Part shown: one piece after another, positions 2,540 to 10,154 of the stretch
How the letters are laid out: the number at the start of each line of letters is the position of its first letter
Position numbering within the stretch: the stretch's first letter is position 1
From: a virus
Length of the DNA stretch: 64,000 bases
Direction: 5' to 3' (one strand)
Virus record (IMG/VR): IMGVR_UViG_3300017987_000006
Location: 32,001-96,000 of that record
Position numbers and translations under genes: made by a program
Notes under the pieces: generated by a model
What the model was told of the DNA's origin: nothing
Seen by the model: the letters and a program-made list of their open reading frames with translations, nothing else
The model's database searches: none

Positions 2540-3364
2540 ATGCCAGGAGTAACTGAAGAGAACATCAAGCACTGGTTAAGGATGGACATACCGAAGGAGC
2601 TGTTGGAGGCGTTGGACGCATCGAGGAAGCTGGGCGGGTCATACATAGAGGACCTGCTCAAGAAGGGGATCTATAGGTTGGAGGAGATGTACGGCGACCA
2701 GGCGGAGCTCAACCTGGACTCGGTGATCGCAGAGGCGATCCAGAGCTTCACGGAGAAGCAGAGGAAGACCTCCGAGAACAGGTCCTCCCTGGACGACGCG
2801 AAGCGGACGACGGAGACGGTGGACAAGCAGGAGGTCGAGGTCGTCGTGAAACACGAGGTGGACGGGGAATCCTTCGAGCGGCGGTACTTGCTTGATCAGG
2901 CTTCCATCAATCAAAACAGGCAGTACAGCAAGGAGTACGACGAAAATGGCAGATGTGCGGACATCGTGCCGGTCGGAAAGCCATACCTCGTGGTGACTGG
3001 TGTAGTGGTCGGGGGGAGTAACTCCCCGGCTAAAGATCTGCAAGTGTGCGCGGACAAGATCAAAGATCTGCAAGTGTACGCGGACAAGATCGCAGACCGG
3101 CTAAGTCTGGAGGTCACGTGGTGCGGAAGGACCATGGCAACGCTGGAGATAGACGAGAGGACACTGGTAGCGGGAGACAAGCCAGTCGACGAGCTCGTCG
3201 CCGGCTTTTGCGATCGAGCGGCGCGGGAGATCAACATACCGAACGTGTCGGCGAAGGACATCCACAGGGAACTCTCGCTCGCTGTCGGATCGCGCTACGA
3301 AGAAATCGCTGCCCAGTCACCGGTAAACGAGTCCCCAGCGTCAGAAAGATCAAGCGAAAGCTAG
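2540..3364 (+). CDS. hypothetical protein
   Basis: 274-aa ORF, GGAGGAAG RBS. Confidence 0.65.
   Translation: MPGVTEENIKHWLRMDIPKELLEALDASRKLGGSYIEDLLKKGIYRLEEMYGDQAELNLDSVIAEAIQSFTEKQRKTSENRSSLDDAKRTTETVDKQEVEVVVKHEVDGESFERRYLLDQASINQNRQYSKEYDENGRCADIVPVGKPYLVVTGVVVGGSNSPAKDLQVCADKIKDLQVYADKIADRLSLEVTWCGRTMATLEIDERTLVAGDKPVDELVAGFCDRAAREINIPNVSAKDIHRELSLAVGSRYEEIAAQSPVNESPASERSSES
3032..3091 (+). repeat. in-frame 30-nt tandem duplication
   Basis: AAAGATCTGCAAGTGT(G/A)CGCGGACAAGATC x2, 29/30 identical; encodes KDLQVCADKI/KDLQVYADKI. Confidence 0.95.
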
Positions 3365-3384
3365 ACGGGAGGATCAAGGTATGG

Positions 3385-3948
3385 ATGGGGTTCCCACGGG
3401 ACTGGCTTCCGGATGTCGCGCAAGTGATCGCAGAGGTTCTGCACGAGAACGCTCTGCGGCGCGGCATACCGGAGACCGTTCGACGATCGGAAATCGTTCT
3501 GGAGGGAAGGAATCCGTTGTTGATGTCCTCGACACACACGACCACCATGAAAGATGGGGCAAAGATCCCTACGTGGCGGGGCAAGAAGTTCGAGGGCAGG
3601 GAGTCGCTGAAACAAGCGATCTCGGACCTGATGGATGGCGTAGATGAAGATGACGGTAGAGGTGCTTTTGGGAATCCAGCTGGAAGATTCCGGTACGATG
3701 CTTTCGCCAAAGAATTTGCGGCCATCGGGGCGGGTGTACGCAACGAAGATGGCGTTCAAGGCGTTGTGCAAGATTCTGCACGAGAAATACGGGATTGGAC
3801 TGGACGTGGTGAGTCAGTCGGCCGAGGCCGCATCATCGATGTGCAGTATGATCGCCAACGGGGACATGGACTGGGAAGAGAACAACCTGATTCGAAAGAA
3901 GCGCGAGATGCTTCGCAGGAGGACAAGGAAAAATGCAAGCCTGGATAG
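3385..3948 (+). CDS. hypothetical protein (start reassigned to MGFPRDW; long overlap with next ORF)
   Basis: GGGAGG upstream of ATG 3385; protein-like N-terminal ~90 aa. Confidence 0.45.
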   Translation: MGFPRDWLPDVAQVIAEVLHENALRRGIPETVRRSEIVLEGRNPLLMSSTHTTTMKDGAKIPTWRGKKFEGRESLKQAISDLMDGVDEDDGRGAFGNPAGRFRYDAFAKEFAAIGAGVRNEDGVQGVVQDSAREIRDWTGRGESVGRGRIIDVQYDRQRGHGLGREQPDSKEARDASQEDKEKCKPG

Positions 3949-3967: not shown

Positions 3968-4598
3968 GGTCACATTCGTCATTGGTGGGCTGATCGTCAT
4001 TCTGGCCATTGGCGGTGTCATCTACGGCATTGCCACGAAGGCCGGGGATGAAGGGTTTCACGCGGCGGCGGACGGGACAGTCCTGAAGTGGGACCGCTCG
4101 GCCCTGCCGCTGACTTGCTTTCACGACACATTCCCCAATGAGGAGCACCAGGCTGCGCTGAAGGAGGCGATCGGGAAGATCTCCAAGGCTGGGATATCGG
4201 CGTTCATGCCGTGCCAGCCTTGGATGGTCTCCGATCCCTTCCCCACAAAGCACGTCAAAAACACGGTCTTGATCAAGGTTGGCGCTCCGCCGGAGCCAGA
4301 ACGAGAAGTGGTGGTCACTTCTCCGTTCGAACCGAAGCACGGGGCGTCCACATTTTTAGCTCATGTCAAGGGAAAAGGGATCTACGGCGCGATCGTTTAT
4401 ATCATGCCAGACCTTGATAAGAAGCTGTACGGTAGGGTCTACCTGCACGAGCTTTTGCACGCCCTGGGCTTGACACACGACCGTGTTCGCGATTCGATTA
4501 TGTATCCGACAGCAGCAGAGAGGGCCACCGACCTGTCCAGTAAGGACACTAAACTACTGCTGAAAACCTACGGAGAGCGGAACGATGAGCCTAGCTGA
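3933..4598 (+). CDS. membrane-anchored matrixin/M10-like zinc metalloprotease
   Basis: N-terminal hydrophobic helix; HELLHALGLTH (HExxHxxGxxH) and SIMYP Met-turn. Confidence 0.85.
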   Translation: MQAWIEMIKQNKVTFVIGGLIVILAIGGVIYGIATKAGDEGFHAAADGTVLKWDRSALPLTCFHDTFPNEEHQAALKEAIGKISKAGISAFMPCQPWMVSDPFPTKHVKNTVLIKVGAPPEPEREVVVTSPFEPKHGASTFLAHVKGKGIYGAIVYIMPDLDKKLYGRVYLHELLHALGLTHDRVRDSIMYPTAAERATDLSSKDTKLLLKTYGERNDEPS

Positions 4599-5058
4599 TC
4601 AAATCTGCAGCACATTCGGCGCATTGAAGGTCAACCCGACGAGTAAACCCGCGGTGATCAAAGCCGTCCAGGGCGATACCAGGCTGCACGTATCTGTGCG
4701 CGTCGATCCAAAGAAGCTGAAGCCGTGGTTGGCCGCGATGGAGTACGTCTTGAAGAACAAGCAGGGGTGGGATGTTCACCTCTGCAAGCAGTACTTCATT
4801 CGAGGCGGCAAGATCATGTACGCCTGGAACTTCATCGCGCAGTGGGCGTCGGAGGACATTTCAGAGCAGGTTCTCACAAACATGCTCGAGGTGCTCAAGT
4901 TCGCCGCGCGCAATATGCCGAAGGTCGTGCACCAGATAACAGAGTATCCGCTGGCTGGGGCTGGAGACGATCGAAACAAGCCCGAGGGGTCCATGAACCC
5001 AAAGGCCAGCGGATACAAGCAGCGTGGGGCACACCCCATCAGGCTGGGAAGGAAGTGA
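4585..5058 (+). CDS. hypothetical protein
   Basis: 157-aa ORF coupled to neighbours. Confidence 0.65.
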   Translation: MSLADQICSTFGALKVNPTSKPAVIKAVQGDTRLHVSVRVDPKKLKPWLAAMEYVLKNKQGWDVHLCKQYFIRGGKIMYAWNFIAQWASEDISEQVLTNMLEVLKFAARNMPKVVHQITEYPLAGAGDDRNKPEGSMNPKASGYKQRGAHPIRLGRK

Positions 5059-6144: not shown

Positions 6145-7171
6145 GAAGGTTCTGCAGAGTAATGTACACCTCCAGCAGACCATCTCGGAAATGGTGAGGG
6201 ATTTCGACGCCCGGCGGAATGAGACCGAGAAGCGCATTTCTGAAAGCAACCAGCAGCTCTGGCGCAACCAGCAGGAGCAGAACGAGGGCCTGCGCATCGC
6301 TGAGAAACACGCAATGATCCAGCGACGTGTCTTCAATGATGCATTGGCTGGGTGCACGCGCGTCACGAGCATCGAGCGGAAGATCCAGGAGGGATCGGAC
6401 GAGGTGGAAGAGGTCCAGGTCATCGACTGGGACTGGTACGCCGAGCAGTTGATCAACAGCGCCGATTATAACGACTTCATCGTTGGCGTCCTGGTTCCGG
6501 AGGAGACCGTGAAGCAGAAGACCGAGCAGCGGTCTCAGCGCGCTCGTGCGCAGGTCCTGCACTACTGTGTCTCCAAGGCCCTGGCCAAGGATGAGGCAAA
6601 GCTCAGAGAGGCGCTGGAGGGGGATGGCCTGGAAGGTCTGCTCAAGGACTTCATGCCCAACGGCGTGGATTGGACGGACGAGATGAGTCTCGAGATGGAG
6701 GACATTGCCAAGGCCGGTCTGATGCTTTGGGAGCAGAAGAAGCAGGAAGCCATCAAACGGGCCAAGAAGGTCAGGATCCACAGCGCCATCGATAAGCTGG
6801 TCAGGGTTATGCCAGACGAGTCCATCAGGAAGACGGCAGATCGCATCGAGGCTGGAGAGCCCATCCTGAAGGATAAGGATGGGAACGAGATCGAGCTGAG
6901 CGATGAAGAGGCCAAGGAGGCCGCCGAATTGATGCGTTCCAAGATCAACGATCCCGAAGCCATCGAGAAGGCCAAGAATGAGCTGATGGAGGAGACGGCC
7001 GCTGTGGCCAAGATAGCCACAGAGGCCCAGGAAGCCATCGCCAAGGGGGACGCTGAGACGGCCGGTAGGAAGATGGCTGAGCTGGAAGAAAAGGTCGAGG
7101 AGGCCGAGGCCAAGGCCCCTGATGACCCAAACAAGCAGTTCCCGGAAGGGGCTTCGATCTTCGGAGGATAA
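6089..7171 (+). CDS. hypothetical coiled-coil-rich protein
   Basis: 360-aa ORF, E/K/A-rich helical composition. Confidence 0.7.
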   Translation: MSKRKSKPKRNAKPLTARKKVLQSNVHLQQTISEMVRDFDARRNETEKRISESNQQLWRNQQEQNEGLRIAEKHAMIQRRVFNDALAGCTRVTSIERKIQEGSDEVEEVQVIDWDWYAEQLINSADYNDFIVGVLVPEETVKQKTEQRSQRARAQVLHYCVSKALAKDEAKLREALEGDGLEGLLKDFMPNGVDWTDEMSLEMEDIAKAGLMLWEQKKQEAIKRAKKVRIHSAIDKLVRVMPDESIRKTADRIEAGEPILKDKDGNEIELSDEEAKEAAELMRSKINDPEAIEKAKNELMEETAAVAKIATEAQEAIAKGDAETAGRKMAELEEKVEEAEAKAPDDPNKQFPEGASIFGG

Positions 7172-7172
7172 C

Positions 7173-7361
7173 ATGCCGCGTATCATCAGGGGGACAGCCG
7201 AGAAGAAGTACAACATCGTCAAGACCCAACATCGTTCAAACATCAACAAGATGCGTTGCCAGGGCTGCAGGTTGGGTTACGCAGAGCGTGTTCAGACGGC
7301 CGGCGGGTGGGTCTATCGTTGCAACCGGTGCGGCCGGGAGTACACTGTAGACAAGCTGTAG
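7173..7361 (+). CDS. small Zn-ribbon protein
   Basis: GGAGGA RBS, ATG 7173; CQGC...CNRC. Confidence 0.7.
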   Translation: MPRIIRGTAEKKYNIVKTQHRSNINKMRCQGCRLGYAERVQTAGGWVYRCNRCGREYTVDKL

Positions 7362-7389
7362 AACTAAAGAGAGGTCGGTCGTCCTCTCT
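7360..7389 (-). terminator. hairpin with U-rich tail on minus strand
   Basis: AGAGAGG(7368-74)/CCTCTCT(7383-89) 7-bp stem; minus strand continues TTAGTTCT; adjacent hairpin AAACCC-gag-GGGTTT 7390-7404. Confidence 0.45.
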
Positions 7390-7473
7390 AAACCCGAGGG
7401 GTTTGGCTGATTGCGGTCTGGTCTTTACGTCACAGAGCACTCAAGTACCCACCTGATTAATCATTTTGTAGCT

Positions 7474-7500
7474 AAGAAAAGACAGCCCGGCCGGGCTGCC
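7474..7500 (-). terminator. intrinsic terminator for leftward transcription, at the distal end of the pentamer array
   Basis: minus strand GGCAGCCC-GGCC-GGGCTGTC followed by TTTTCTT. Confidence 0.7.
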
Positions 7501-7502
7501 TC

Positions 7503-8589
7503 AGGATGGCATGGATTGAGAAGGAGTGTCAGAGCGATCGGGTCTGGATCAGATCGTCGAACTGGTGGGGACCGGACCGCGTTGGGTTGTCGCCACGATC
7601 AGGTCTGGCAGGATATGGACTGTCGAGTTGGTTAGATAAGGGCTGTCGCGCCGTGACGGACTGCGCCGTGCGGAGGGGGGACGTCGACTAGGCGCGAGCG
7701 GGAGTGGTCAGGCATGGTTCGTCTGATCGCGGGGGACCGGGCAGGAGAAGGCTTGTCAGATCGAGAGGGATTGGCCTGTTCCAGCTCGTCGCGAAGGCTT
7801 GGCTTATCAGTTAGGCCCGGCCAGGTCTGTCAGCTGCGTGGTGCGTGAGGGCCGGATCGGGCATGTCGAATCGGATGACGACGAGGTGCGGGTGGGCCAG
7901 TCAGCTTGGGTGGGGTTGAGGAGCGACGGCATGGGATGTCGGCCGGGGCGGGCGTGAACTGGAGCGGGTTGTCGGCTTTGCCAGCACCGGCTCGCAACGG
8001 CTCGTAATGAATCGGACCGTCGAAGTGGATGGGCTAGGAGGGGAGAGGGGAGGCTTGTCAGCACGGGGTGAGGTGGATAGGTCAGGAATGTCGAGCAGTC
8101 TCGGCTGGTTTAGGGTTGGCTTGTCAGGCAGGAGCGGTCCGGTGTAGATCGGATTGTCCAGTCGGTTGGAACAGGCAAGGCATGTCGAGCAGGGAAGGCG
8201 CGGCTGATCTTGGCCCGTCGATTAGGATGGGTAGGGATTGGCTTGTCGGAATGGATCGAATGGGCTTGTCTATGCGGACGGGGACCGAGCGGACCAGGAG
8301 AGGTGAGTCGATCTGAAGTGGATGGGCGCGAACCGGAAGGGTCTGTCGAAAGGTTTGGGATGGGCGGGGACAAGACAGGTGCGTCAGAATGAGGGGGCTC
8401 GAGTGAGAGCGAGTGGGTGAGTCGACCCGGCTTGGTACGCGGTGGTCCGGCATGTCAGCTCGAGAGGAACCGGCTTGGTCTGTCGGACTGGTGTGGTGTG
8501 TATGGGACTGTCTCGTCGGGATCGGGTTGGTTTGATTTGGCGAGGTGTGTCAGGAGGGTCTAAGGTGGGTGGGACCGTGTTGGCTTGTA
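7503..8589. repeat. non-coding punctuated pentamer array: 33 units of (GR-NNN)k + GTC on plus strand (GAC-[NNN-YC]k on minus); candidate guide-RNA array for the adjacent RAMP
   Basis: 33 delimiters (31 GTC, 1 ATC, 1 GTA) from 7528 to 8587; 27 of 32 spacings equal 5k+3 nt; pentamer before the delimiter starts GG in 31/33; no credible ORF. Confidence 0.9.
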
Positions 8590-8611
8590 CGGGATAGTCT
8601 CAGTGTCTTGT

Positions 8612-9433
8612 CTAGGCCGCCTTGCCCTTTTTGGGAACCTTCGTCTTGGGAGCCTTCGTCTTGGGCTTGGGCAGCGAGCCCTTCTGGAGCTCCTCGACGG
8701 TGAGGAACTTGACGCGGCCGAAGCCCTGGGACCTCGAGCAGCCGAAGCCGTTATCTTGCGCCAGCTGCATGCAGTAGGTCAAGAACTCCTCGCTCATCCG
8801 CTTATCCTTCGGATCGGCAAACCATATCTCGAACTCGATGTAGGTACCGGGTTCCACGTAGTCGTGAAACTTGATCGTACTGCGCGGCCCCTGGGGGCCG
8901 ATGACGTGCGCCACCGTCTCTTCATGCCCGTCCGGCTCCACCAGCCGCTTCCTGTCCGCTTCCTTGTGTCCCTTGTCGTATAGGTAGACGCGGTCTGGGT
9001 GCTCGCAGCCCCGGATGAAGAATGAGTGCTGTAAGATCTGACGAACGCCGCGGTGTACGTTGGTCAGCCCCAGCACCGTTGCGGTCTCCTTGAAGCCGGC
9101 CTTGAGTTGCCGCGTCTCCAGAAAGATGCCATGTCCTTCCGGTTCGATCTTGTCCGGCTCCGCCTTGAACCCCGTCCAGGACTTGAGCTTCGCCTTCTCG
9201 CTCTCCTCTATGTCGTCATCGGACGACATCTCCTGGACGCGGGCTCTGGCCGCCTCCACGGTCTCGTCCTTGACCAGGCCCTTGCGGTGTCGTGCCTCGA
9301 GCATGGCCAGCTCGGATTCCGGATGTTTTGGCCAGCCGCCGAGCAGCCGGTTGGCCGTGACCATTGTCACCTTGTACTTCGTGTAGATGTTGACGTCGTG
9401 TTCGCGAACTAGTTCCTCAAAAGTCCTCTCCAT
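8612..9433 (-). CDS. solitary Cas7-like RAMP-superfamily protein
   Basis: beta1 YKVTMVTANRLLGGWP; LETRQLKAGFKETA (IPGSSLKGxxR-equivalent); HDYVEPGTYIEFEI; C-terminal G-rich loop GFGCSRSQGFGR; strong AAGGAG RBS with A/C-rich leader. Confidence 0.8.
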   Translation of the reverse strand: MERTFEELVREHDVNIYTKYKVTMVTANRLLGGWPKHPESELAMLEARHRKGLVKDETVEAARARVQEMSSDDDIEESEKAKLKSWTGFKAEPDKIEPEGHGIFLETRQLKAGFKETATVLGLTNVHRGVRQILQHSFFIRGCEHPDRVYLYDKGHKEADRKRLVEPDGHEETVAHVIGPQGPRSTIKFHDYVEPGTYIEFEIWFADPKDKRMSEEFLTYCMQLAQDNGFGCSRSQGFGRVKFLTVEELQKGSLPKPKTKAPKTKVPKKGKAA

Positions 9434-9473
9434 TTGAGATCTCCTTGTTATTGAGGTTGTTGTGAAAGGGAGC

Positions 9474-10154
9474 TTAGCGCTCCCAAAGAATTGTGAGTTC
9501 GTCGTCCTGTACGTGGATCCATCCGCCAGACGTCTTGTTCTGGTATACTTGCACTACTTGCTGGCACCAGGGCGGCGGCGGGCCGTTCCACATGGACAAG
9601 GCCCCTTCGAGCCTGACAAACTCTCCGGCGTCAGGCTCGAAACATCCCACAGGTAGCGTGACCCGCGGCTTGGGAGTCCTGGGCGTCCCCCAGGTCTTCG
9701 ATTTCGTCTTCGATTCCAGCAGCGCGATGTAGAAGTTCCTCAATGGGATACAAGCCCCTTTCTCGATCAATGTGACCTGTTTCTCTTTCCACTCGTCCTG
9801 CCACAGCTCCTCATCGATCTCGTGCAGCGTCCCATCCCGTCCGGCTTCTACGATCTTCCCCTCGTGTAGGAAAGCGTAGAGGTTTCCTCCTTTGCACCAA
9901 CCGAGGGCGGGGATCAAATCGCGCGGAACCATCTGTCCGATGTCGTCCCACTCCACCAGGTGCATGTAGAACGTTCTGTCCTCTGCACCACTCGCCCAGA
10001 CCTTGCGCCCATTGACGCTGATCTTCACATGACAGAAGTGTCCCAGCTGCTTGACGCGTCCTGAGCGCTTGATGATGCCGATCATGGGCAAATCCGGTTT
10101 GGGGCCTTCAACCCCAAACCAGATCTGCTTGACGTACCAACTGTACTCACTCAC
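9474..10154 (-). CDS. hypothetical protein immediately upstream of the RAMP gene
   Basis: 226-aa ORF, same strand, 40-nt gap. Confidence 0.7.
   Translation of the reverse strand: MSEYSWYVKQIWFGVEGPKPDLPMIGIIKRSGRVKQLGHFCHVKISVNGRKVWASGAEDRTFYMHLVEWDDIGQMVPRDLIPALGWCKGGNLYAFLHEGKIVEAGRDGTLHEIDEELWQDEWKEKQVTLIEKGACIPLRNFYIALLESKTKSKTWGTPRTPKPRVTLPVGCFEPDAGEFVRLEGALSMWNGPPPPWCQQVVQVYQNKTSGGWIHVQDDELTILWER

What the first reader, a model, noticed from the sequence alone, without database searches (positions are those of the whole stretch)
7503..8589. Array grammar: (GR-NNN)k + GTC with 5k+3 spacing
Hand parsing gives 33 delimiters (GTC; ATC at 7806, GTA at 8587). Spacings are 33 nt (9x), 38 (8x), 28 (5x), 23 (3x), 18 and 48 (1x each), so 27 of 32 are exactly 5k+3. 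The other five are 34, 35, 36, 39 and 39. Examples: 8022-8059 GAAGT GGATG GGCTA GGAGG GGAGA GGGGA GGCTT GTC; 7941-7973 GGCCG GGGCG GGCGT GAACT GGAGC GGGTT GTC; 8126-8158 AGGCA GGAGC GGTCC GGTGT AGATC GGATT GTC. The last pentamer starts GG in 31/33 and ends in a pyrimidine in 30/33. The first pentamer usually starts GA/AG. The variable triplets differ between units and I saw no duplicated unit. A conserved phase with free variable positions is the signature of an information-carrying code rather than a satellite. Standard CRISPR and tandem-repeat finders would likely miss it.
Basis: seen in the sequence. Interest (0 to 1): 0.9.

Follow-up and report, generated by a model that had tools for sequence, protein, structure and literature searches.

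The report
Phage VIPR-type guide RNA array
The 1.1 kb five-base rhythm is real and is most likely the guide-RNA array of a VIPR-type system (a lone Cas7-like protein plus five-base-repeat guides, first described in 2026 preprints), here in a divergent form with three free letters per unit, 3-base punctuation and probably a C-rich rather than a G-rich RNA.

Summary
Positions 7503-8589 are non-coding and follow (G-R-N-N-N)k + GTC: the lag-5 G autocorrelation is z 8.6 against shuffles, and 25-27 of 32-33 units are 5k+3 long.

The array starts 22 nt after the stop of a 273-aa gene (8612-9433, minus strand). That protein folds like Cas7/Csm3 and is a remote homologue of the published Vipr protein (HHalign 90.5%, E 1.4e-6). 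Relatives down to about 25% identity, in at least 35 other viral loci including cultured Microcystis phage Mae-JY09, carry the same grammar beside the gene, with no sequence conservation.

This is therefore a VIPR-type system (bioRxiv 10.64898/2026.04.26.720920), not a new class. It differs from the characterised type in five ways:
- It has two fixed and three free bases per pentamer.
- Its units hold 3-9 pentamers.
- It has a 3-nt delimiter instead of a structured tail.
- It holds 33 units.
- The published guanine-reading G-loop residues are replaced.

Operon layout and terminators point to the C-rich strand, GAC-(NNNYC)k, as the RNA. I put that at about 70%; it is untested.

No targets were found. 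This scan has noted VIPR-type arrays before on other DNA (196 notes, at least 152 genomes).

The parts
7503..8589 (-). Array of 33 head-to-tail units. On the minus (gene-sense) strand each reads GAC-(N-N-N-Y-C)k with k = 3-9, mostly 5-7; the first delimiter is TAC and one is GAT. On the plus strand this is (G-R-N-N-N)k-GTC. These are candidate guide RNAs (vrRNA-like).
   Evidence: for grammar and statistics. for uniqueness in the genome. for the same grammar next to homologous genes elsewhere.
8612..9433 (-). Gene for a 273-aa Vipr-like RAMP with a Cas7/Csm3-like fold. It has a G-loop G229-F-G-C-S-R-S-Q-G-F-G239, a long beta-hairpin 'thumb' (residues 169-193) with invariant QGPR at its tip, and a Lys/Pro-rich tail.
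   Evidence: No Pfam hit. AF2 model with pLDDT 84. Best folds are Csm3 6ae2_B (Z 13.8, rmsd 3.9, 164 aligned), Cmr4, type IV Csf2 and type VII Cas7. HHalign to the SUSP1 Vipr family gives Prob 90.5%, E 1.4e-6 over 143 columns. The family has 1506 representative clusters. A homotrimer model has a head-to-tail interface with score 0.63 against best control 0.00.
7470..7498 (-). Intrinsic-terminator-like element on the minus strand, directly after the last unit. It is the hairpin CAGCCCGG/CCGGGCTG (7483-7498) followed by TCTTTTCTT. No T-run follows the hairpin on the plus strand.
   Evidence: Read from the sequence. The simple scanner did not list it. Analogous sense-strand terminators follow the arrays in L003 and L013.
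8590..8611 (-). A 22-nt junction between the stop codon of the RAMP gene and the first unit. It leaves no room for a separate promoter, so gene and array are probably co-transcribed.
   Evidence: No promoter-like site was found in 6900-9600.

Best explanation
The array and the adjacent 273-aa gene form a VIPR-type RNA-guided system in a 178 kb uncultured phage.

Shown here:
- The protein is a Cas7-fold RAMP remotely homologous to Vipr.
- The pentamer grammar is conserved next to this gene family, while the sequence is free to vary.

Inferred by homology with the solved SUSP1 system:
- One protomer binds one pentamer and holds the two fixed bases.
- The variable bases are presented to a DNA target, so each unit is one guide, and binding silences genes of rival mobile elements.

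Inferred from layout:
- The RNA is the gene-sense, C-rich strand, 5'-GAC-(NNNYC)k-3', made as one transcript with the gene and ended by the terminator at 7470-7498. I put this at about 70%.
- GAC marks the unit boundary, as a processing or capping site. I put this at about 50%.
- Units of 5-7 pentamers would each take about one turn of a Vipr-like filament.
- With three free bases per pentamer, a unit carries 15-21 nt of specificity.
For: 1. Grammar and periodicity are confirmed.
2. The protein has a Cas7/Csm3 fold. The profile-profile match to the SUSP1 Vipr family has Prob 90.5%, E 1.4e-6, and covers helix-1 and the G-loop.
3. Homologues at 65% to about 25% identity carry the same kind of array directly up- or downstream. 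These are L002 (2.8 kb), L003, L006, L007, Microcystis phage Mae-JY09 and about 30 IMG/VR or MAG loci. No other neighbouring gene is conserved.
4. The published VIPR description fits: a phage-encoded lone RAMP, pentamer-repeat vrRNAs, alternative NNNGG/YNNNG/NNNNG repeats, and 'staggered' head-to-tail arrays. Non-canonical fixed motifs are also in print.
5. Strand evidence:
- In every locus the C-periodic strand is the gene's sense strand.
- Arrays abut the gene's RBS and the upstream gene's stop codon in L013, L018, L037 and L044.
- Sense-strand terminators follow the arrays in the window, L003 and L013.
- In L014 a canonical Vipr with G-type vrRNAs and a window-family gene with a C-type array lie on one strand.
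- In SUSP1 the vrRNAs lie on the vipr sense strand.
6. The published guanine readers D177/W178 are replaced by [A/C/S]-[S/D/N] in this family, which fits a changed base specificity.
7. A homotrimer model supports head-to-tail self-association: score 0.63, best control 0.00, at least 72% contact agreement, partner pLDDT at least 69. In the tool's calibration, 20 of 30 solved pairs and 1 of 23 single chains reached the mark. Cas7 and Vipr filaments are solved, so this pass may reflect likeness to them.
Against: There are no RNA data, so neither expression, strand nor processing has been observed.

All experimentally characterised vrRNAs carry guanines in the fixed positions, and the preprint lists 'NNNGG' repeats. 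That is what this array looks like if the plus strand is the RNA.

A C-rich, G-poor untranslated RNA of 1-3 kb would be an ideal Rho loading site. That is awkward for loci where the array precedes the gene (L037).

The HHalign match to Vipr is remote (16% identity) and does not cover the N-terminal third.

No vap-like accessory gene is conserved.
Confidence: 0.8

Rival explanations
1. It is the same VIPR-type system, but the functional RNA is the G-rich plus strand, (GRNNN)k-GTC. That would make it an 'NNNGG-type' vrRNA as listed in the preprint, transcribed convergently and antisense to the RAMP gene.
For: All vrRNAs confirmed by sRNA-seq have G in the fixed positions, and the preprint names NNNGG repeats among the alternatives. 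A G-rich RNA would not be a Rho substrate. The conserved GGCTTGTC end of each unit could be a short 3' handle.
Against: In SUSP1 and in L014 the G-type vrRNAs lie on the vipr sense strand. In this family the sense strand is always the C-rich one.

Arrays are wedged between a stop codon and an RBS with no space for antisense promoters.

Clear terminators follow the arrays on the sense strand only.

The guanine-reading Asp-Trp of the G-loop is absent.
Confidence: 0.2
2. The array is a decoy or sponge RNA rather than a set of guides. One version is a C-rich antisense mimic that titrates the G-rich vrRNAs of rival VIPR systems. Another is a scaffold that sequesters a host RNA-binding protein such as Rho, which binds YC dinucleotides. 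In either case the RAMP would only protect or package the RNA.
For: YC recurs every 5 nt and the RNA is unstructured and G-poor. Published work shows satellites using solo vrRNAs as decoys in VIPR conflicts. L014 carries G-type and C-type arrays together.
Against: The variable positions are near-uniform and differ between units. A sponge would not need that.

The array is tied to one RAMP family whose G-loop differs from G-reading Viprs.

The Rho idea rests on my general knowledge only and was not tested.
Confidence: 0.05
3. It is a DNA-level element: a protein-binding lattice, an origin or packaging site, or a G-quadruplex-prone tract, and it does not act through RNA.
For: GG recurs every half helical turn on one strand, with 53 overlapping two-tetrad G4 motifs. 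The tract is intergenic between convergent genes.
Against: In other phages the arrays sit inside same-strand operons, on either side of the RAMP gene, and range from 0.35 to 3 kb. The partner protein has an RNA-binding RAMP fold. The published relatives act through RNA.
Confidence: 0.03

Closest known systems
VIPR systems (Vipr protein + vrRNA): type II of Escherichia phage SUSP1 and the Pseudomonas fulva prophage. Sources: bioRxiv 10.64898/2026.04.26.720920, 10.64898/2026.04.26.720927 and 10.64898/2026.10.15.759431.
   Same: It is phage-encoded, with a single small RAMP and no other cas genes. The non-coding tandem pentamers have fixed and hypervariable positions, and the array lies beside the gene on its sense strand. 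The protein is a remote homologue, with the RRM, G-loop and thumb layout and predicted head-to-tail self-association.
   Different: - The fixed part is 2 bases (Y-C on the sense strand, G-R on the other) rather than GGY, and 3 bases are free rather than 2.
- Units hold 3-9 pentamers rather than 9-16.
- There is a 3-nt GAC/GTC delimiter instead of a roughly 40-60 nt pseudoknot tail and a leader for each vrRNA.
- There are 33 units here, and up to about 70-80 in relatives, rather than 1-4.
- The protein is 273 aa rather than 195.
- The G-loop reads G-x-G-[ACS]-[SDN]-R-S-Q-G-x-G rather than G-x-G-D-W-R-P-R-F-G.
- No vap gene is conserved.
- The sense strand is C-rich.
Non-type-II VIPR variants in print: 'staggered' vrRNA arrays and NNNGG/YNNNG/NNNNG repeats (10.64898/2026.04.26.720920, methods and fig. 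S18), and non-canonical GAC/NN, CAC/NN, WGT/NN and TGH/NN arrays (10.64898/2026.10.21.760802).
   Same: These are head-to-tail units without tails, pentamers with fewer or different fixed bases, and a Vipr-like fold next door. This array may belong to one of these groups.
   Different: I could not see the figures or tables, so I cannot say whether this clade is among the seven types. The text says staggered arrays were not confirmed by sRNA-seq. It mentions no 2-4 nt phase-shifting delimiter, no 5k+3 rule and no C-rich sense strand.
Cas7 backbone subunits of class 1 CRISPR-Cas (Csm3/Cmr4 of type III, Csf2 of type IV, Cas7 of type VII).
   Same: These are the best structural matches (Z 11-13.8). 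They share a G-rich loop and a thumb hairpin, and they bind guide RNA as a filament with a fixed number of nucleotides per subunit.
   Different: The rhythm is 5 nt rather than 6. There are no 25-40 nt CRISPR repeats, no Cas1/2, Cas10, Cas5, Cas6 or Cas11 nearby, and no conserved Asp at the Csm3 catalytic loop. The guides are germline-encoded rather than acquired.

Membership tests
VIPR system | A Vipr-family RAMP protein with an RRM core, G-loop and thumb, homologous to published Vipr. | tested here: met
   The fold matches Cas7/Csm3 at Z 13.8. HHalign of 56 family members against 25 SUSP1-Vipr relatives gives Prob 90.5%, E 1.4e-6 over 143 columns including the G-loop. The relationship is remote, at 16% identity.
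VIPR system | Non-coding tandem pentanucleotide repeats, with fixed and hypervariable positions, beside the gene. | tested here: met
   for the window. for more than 35 related loci.
VIPR system | The canonical repeat motif GGY/NN (YNNGG). | tested here: not met
   The fixed positions are G 0.90 and G/A 0.65/0.22 on the plus strand (C and Y on the minus strand). The third position is not a pyrimidine and is near-uniform. The preprint allows NNNGG-type variants.
VIPR system | Each vrRNA has 9-16 repeats followed by a conserved structured 3' tail. | tested here: not met
   Units have 3-9 pentamers separated only by GAC/GTC. Neither strand folds better than shuffles and there is no Rfam hit. 'Staggered' tail-less arrays are mentioned in the preprint.
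VIPR system | An accessory vap gene in the locus. | tested here: inconclusive
   No neighbouring gene is conserved across six loci by BLASTP. The neighbours have no Pfam hit. Vap families are diverse, and I had no sequences of them except SUSP1 vap1.
VIPR system | A viral or proviral location without CRISPR arrays or other cas genes. | tested here: met
   The window lies in a 178 kb IMG/VR virus record with direct terminal repeats. The window has no CRISPR-like repeats, and no cas families were found among the nine flanking proteins scanned.
VIPR system | Guanine-reading G-loop residues (D177 and W178 of the solved Vipr). | tested here: not met
   The aligned columns are A/C/S and S/D/N in 56 family members, against D (21/25) and W/Y (24/25) in the SUSP1 family.
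VIPR system | The protein oligomerises along the RNA, one protomer per repeat. | tested here: inconclusive
   The homotrimer model passes: score 0.63, best control 0.00, at least 72% contact agreement, partner pLDDT at least 69, with 20 of 30 solved pairs and 1 of 23 single chains reaching the mark in calibration. The model holds no RNA, and similar filaments are solved, so the pass may come from likeness.
VIPR system | vrRNAs are expressed and co-purify with the protein. | not testable with these tools
   No RNA run holds this DNA.
VIPR system | The variable bases decode to natural targets in rival mobile elements by a gapped rule. | tested here: inconclusive
   The searches listed under Tried and rejected cannot settle this. 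A weak period-3 signal exists in the variable columns: z 2.6 in six arrays and 2.3 in 24 arrays.
CRISPR-Cas class 1 (type III/IV-like) | A CRISPR array of 25-40 nt direct repeats with similar-sized spacers, together with further cas genes. | tested here: not met
   No such repeats were found. The only conserved element between units is about 8 nt, GAC + AAGCC-like. No cas families occur in the neighbours. Only the Cas7 fold is shared.

The most novel reading that the evidence does not exclude
This large RAMP clade (about 1500 representative clusters) uses a mirror-image VIPR code. The guide would be the C-rich sense-strand RNA, GAC-(NNNYC)k. The protein would hold Y-C instead of G-G. All three free bases of each pentamer would pair with three consecutive target bases, a triplet code with no skipped base. 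The long transcript would be cut or capped at GAC into guides about one filament turn long, giving a phage a library of 33 to about 80 guides from one operon.
Probability: 0.3. Interest if true: 0.7.

Novelty: new variant of a known kind. Interest (0 to 1): 0.5.

Why it matters
VIPR was published only in 2026 and has been characterised for the GGY/NN type alone.

This clade is large (1506 representative clusters) and is found mostly in environmental phages. It also occurs in one cultured phage, Microcystis phage Mae-JY09, which makes it experimentally reachable.

It combines several features that would widen the known design space of RNA-guided DNA recognition:
- It has a different fixed dinucleotide.
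- It has three informative bases per repeat.
- It has very short guides packed head to tail with a 3-nt delimiter.
- Its G-loop lacks the published guanine readers.

If the RNA is the C-rich strand, base specificity of the scaffold contacts has flipped from G to C, which bears on how reprogrammable the protein-RNA interface is. If instead the G-rich strand is used, this is simply a further example of the NNNGG-type or staggered arrays already mentioned in print.

Tried and rejected
**Translation.** No ORF longer than 109 aa lies in the array, and array sequence is not conserved between relatives. I rejected this reading.

**Known RNA families.** Rfam at E <= 1 on 7000-9000, and at gathering score on 18 related loci (hammerhead included), gave no hits.

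**Cas6-like reading.** I considered a Cas6-like protein because of the GhGxxxxxGhG loop. Cas6 chains score only Z 6-7.5, against 11-13.8 for Cas7-group chains.

**First database searches.**
- The search for related loci with the single protein found nothing in IMG/VR.
- The 56-sequence alignment was too diverse to make patterns.
- The 20-sequence alignment worked.

**RNA evidence.** No RNA holder is listed for the stretch. Four DNA runs (sediment and seawater metagenomes, three studies) hold it and may be its source. I did not lay reads.

**Target search, all null.**
They were indistinguishable from shuffled guides.
- Six exact IMG/VR pattern scans gave nothing. Two were contiguous triplets (21 and 18 nt), two were xNN patterns (22 and 20 specified bases), and two were 5-nt colinear patterns, one of which found only its own array.
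- Two metagenome scans gave nothing.
- One BLAST of a 36-nt decoded guide against 50,697 phage genomes gave only chance-level hits, E >= 1.
- Exact matching and so few guides cannot exclude any rule.

**Codon test.** Co-occurrence of sense and antisense stop triplets within units was as expected by chance: 4 observed, 3.85 expected. It is uninformative.

**Composition.** GC is raised at the third free position in most arrays. The first position is A-rich, unlike codon position 1, so codon structure cannot be inferred from composition.

**Other checks.**
- HHalign of the family against the single SUSP1 sequence gave no match, Prob 0.06%. Only profile against profile worked.
- Three contig look-ups gave short contigs or no DNA.
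- L005 (the P0013 clade) shows no array within 2.3 kb, but that contig is a fold-back chimera.

Full report
**1. The observation**

There are 33 delimiters: 31 GTC, ATC at 7806 and GTA at 8587. Of the 32 spacings, 27 are 5k+3, and the pentamers between delimiters begin G-R.

G autocorrelation peaks at lags 5 and 10 (z 8.6 and 6.1 against 1000 dinucleotide shuffles). Beyond one unit length it peaks at 23, 28, 33, 38 and 43, which is the signature of a 3-nt phase reset. A parse that chooses GAC sites only by how well C falls every fifth base downstream, with no condition on unit length, still puts 25 of 33 units at 5k+3; shuffles give about a fifth.

The aligned profile on the minus strand is ...Y-C N-N-N Y-C | G-A-C | A-n-n C-C N-N-N Y-C.... 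C reaches 0.88-0.94 at the fixed position and the three free positions are near-uniform.

The longest repeated word in the array is 13 nt.

The stretch has no long ORF, no Rfam match and only two trivial TRF rows. It is the only period-5 tract in the 178 kb genome.

**2. Context**

The window is part of an IMG/VR virus record of 178,259 bp with direct terminal repeats. Almost none of its proteins match Pfam.

The array lies between convergent genes. On the minus strand it begins 22 nt after the stop of a 273-aa gene (8612-9433). It ends at a GC hairpin (7483-7498) followed by TCTTTTCTT on that strand.

**3. The neighbouring protein**

The protein has no Pfam family, but a confident AlphaFold model (pLDDT 84). 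Its best structural matches are all Cas7-group RAMPs: Csm3 6ae2_B (Z 13.8, rmsd 3.9, 164 residues), Cmr4, type IV Csf2, type VII Cas7 and the Cas7 domains of gRAMP. Cas6 chains score only Z 6-7.5.

It carries a G-loop (GFGCSRSQGFG) and a long beta-hairpin with invariant QGPR at its tip.

The family is large: 1506 representative clusters at E <= 1e-3 in a 1.84-billion-protein library.

A homotrimer prediction supports a head-to-tail interface. The score is 0.63 against a best control of 0.00, with at least 72% contact agreement and partner pLDDT of at least 69. In the tool's calibration, 20 of 30 solved pairs and 1 of 23 single chains reached the mark. Solved Cas7 and Vipr filaments may explain this pass.

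**4. The gene-array pair is conserved, the array sequence is not**

Homologues carry the same grammar directly beside the gene:

| Locus | Identity to the window protein | Array |
|---|---|---|
| L002 | 65% | about 2.8 kb |
| L003 | 50% | about 0.35 kb, then two sense-strand terminators |
| L007 | 40% | about 1.5 kb |
| L006 | 34% | 1.85 kb, with 46 of 56 units 5k+3 |
| Microcystis phage Mae-JY09 (cultured) | 29% | about 0.4 kb |

Thirty IMG/VR loci and five MAG contigs found with the family alignment mostly show the same thing, upstream and/or downstream of the gene.

Across 796 parsed units, lengths fall at 5k+3 (42%), 5k+4 (24%) and 5k+2 (19%). The delimiter is therefore 2-4 nt and clade-specific, and one clade uses TTGCAAC. 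No other neighbouring gene is conserved.

**5. What is known**

A full-text search led to three 2026 preprints on VIPR systems. The discovery paper (10.64898/2026.04.26.720920) describes:
- a phage-encoded lone RAMP (Vipr, about 20 kDa);
- vrRNAs of 9-16 YNNGG pentamers plus a structured 3' tail;
- recognition of dsDNA by the NN bases, with one target base skipped per repeat;
- seven types;
- alternative NNNGG, YNNNG and NNNNG repeats;
- 'staggered' arrays in which one vrRNA ends where the next begins, and hammerhead-interspersed arrays.

The structural paper (10.64898/2026.04.26.720927) shows one protomer per repeat in a helical filament of 5-6 subunits per turn. G1 is read by H17 and D177, G2 sits between R138 and W178, and Y3 lies in a purine-excluding pocket.

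A language-model survey (10.64898/2026.10.21.760802) reports 21 clusters with non-canonical fixed motifs such as GAC/NN and CAC/NN.

This scan itself holds 196 notes on VIPR-type arrays in at least 152 genomes.

**6. Membership**

I fetched phage SUSP1 (KT454805.2) and located its locus. It holds vipr (195 aa), vap1, and YNNGG vrRNAs with leaders and tails, all on one strand.

A profile of 56 members of the window's family against a profile of 25 SUSP1-Vipr relatives gives HHalign Prob 90.5%, E 1.4e-6, over 143 columns from helix-1 to the G-loop. The single-sequence comparison had failed.

So the protein is a remote Vipr homologue and the pair is a VIPR-type system. It is not the characterised type. 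The repeat has two fixed and three free bases. Units are 3-9 repeats. There is no tail and no leader for each unit. The array holds 33 units. No vap is recognisable.

The G-loop also differs. It reads G-[LF]-G-[ACS]-[SDN]-R-S-Q-G-x-G-[KR]-F, where the SUSP1 family has G-x-G-D-[WY]-R-P-R-F-G-R-F. The two published guanine readers are therefore not conserved.

**7. Which strand is the RNA?**

This is the one point where my reading may depart from the literature. Five observations favour the C-rich, gene-sense strand:
- In SUSP1 the vrRNAs are on the vipr sense strand. In every locus of this family the sense strand is the C-periodic one.
- In L013, L018, L037 and L044 the array fills the space between the stop codon of the preceding gene and the RBS of the RAMP gene. 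L013 continues array-gene-array-terminator on one strand. This leaves no room for antisense promoters.
- Clear intrinsic terminators follow the arrays on the sense strand in the window, L003 and L013. The antisense candidates are weak.
- L014 holds, on one strand, a canonical Vipr (HHalign 97.7% to the SUSP1 family) with G-type vrRNAs, and a window-family gene followed by a C-type GAC array.
- The loss of Asp-Trp in the G-loop fits a change of the bases held.

Three points count against it. No C-based vrRNA has been shown experimentally. The preprint's 'NNNGG' may be this same array read on the other strand. A long C-rich, G-poor leader should attract Rho (my general knowledge, not tested).

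I put the C-rich strand at about 70%. No RNA run holds this DNA, and neither strand folds better than shuffles.

**8. Mechanism proposed**

Shown: the grammar, the RAMP fold, the homology, the conserved pairing and the co-orientation.

Inferred from the solved relative: protomers polymerise one per pentamer, clamp the two fixed bases and present the free ones to DNA, and binding silences genes of competitors.

Inferred from anatomy: gene and array are one transcript, GAC sets the register and marks unit ends, and units of 5-7 pentamers match about one filament turn.

Open: who cuts, if anyone does. His136 and His176 are invariant in the close family but not family-wide.

**9. The code and the targets**

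Within units, the three free columns keep unit-specific composition, consistent with a 3-bp target period. The period-3 test gives z 2.6 in six arrays and 2.3 in 24 arrays, while periods 4 and 5 give -1.5/-1.7 and 0.5/1.4. All three free columns are overdispersed and the fixed ones are not. This is weak.

It fits either 'three bases read, none skipped' or the published two-plus-skip rule with an unconstrained third base.

Every target search was null, as listed under Tried and rejected. With exact matching and a handful of guides, these results decide nothing.

**10. Verdict**

I rate it a new variant of a known kind: a large, divergent Vipr-like clade with a 2+3 pentamer, a phase-shifting 3-nt delimiter, very many short guides, an altered G-loop and, probably, a C-rich guide strand.

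Noticed in passing
L014:2300-4900 (IMGVR_UViG_3300033150_000513): One locus carries two RAMP systems on one strand. The first is a canonical SUSP1-like Vipr (3161-3736, HHalign 97.7%) with a 167-aa neighbour and at least five G-type YNNGG vrRNAs ending in a CAAGNCAAGACAAGGA-like tail. The second is a window-family gene (3974-4636) followed by a C-type GAC array (4637-4790).
   Followed up: partly
L017:4790-5190 (IMGVR_UViG_3300030104_005128): A related array uses the 7-nt delimiter TTGCAAC instead of GAC between runs of 5-7 NNNYC pentamers.
   Followed up: no
L009:3962-5110 (Microcystis phage Mae-JY09, PP395641.1): A cultured, sequenced phage carries a 29%-identical homologue (WWT39994.1, annotated hypothetical) followed by a 0.4 kb CGAC-delimited C-rich pentamer array. 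This would be a tractable system for RNA-seq.
   Followed up: partly
window:8631-8665: A 15-nt tandem repeat (2.3 copies) inside the 3' end of the RAMP gene encodes the repetitive Lys/Pro tail (PKPKTKAPKTKVPKK). Such basic tails vary in length among homologues.
   Followed up: no
window:7122-7361 (+): A 79-aa protein with two CxxC pairs (zinc-ribbon-like) ends convergently, 140 nt before the array. Its own hairpin at 7368-7389 was flagged as terminator-like on the minus strand.
   Followed up: no
window:3933-4598 (+): A 221-aa protein has a C-terminal match to the matrixin zinc-peptidase family (PF00413, E 1.6e-7). It is one of only three Pfam hits among 19 proteins scanned.
   Followed up: no
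window:19411-19483 (+): A single tRNA-Met (CAT) gene is the only tRNA in the window.
   Followed up: no
L002:9625-9650 and L003:7340-7365: The motif GGAGGTATAAGAGA follows the arrays in two related phages, just upstream of syntenic downstream genes. It may be a shared promoter or leader element.
   Followed up: no
L005:6001-10576 (ena:ERZ27250208 k141_763875): This contig is a fold-back (inverted duplication centred near 8290), probably an assembly artefact. The RAMP homologue there (P0013 clade) is followed by small coding genes and no array within 2.3 kb.
   Followed up: no
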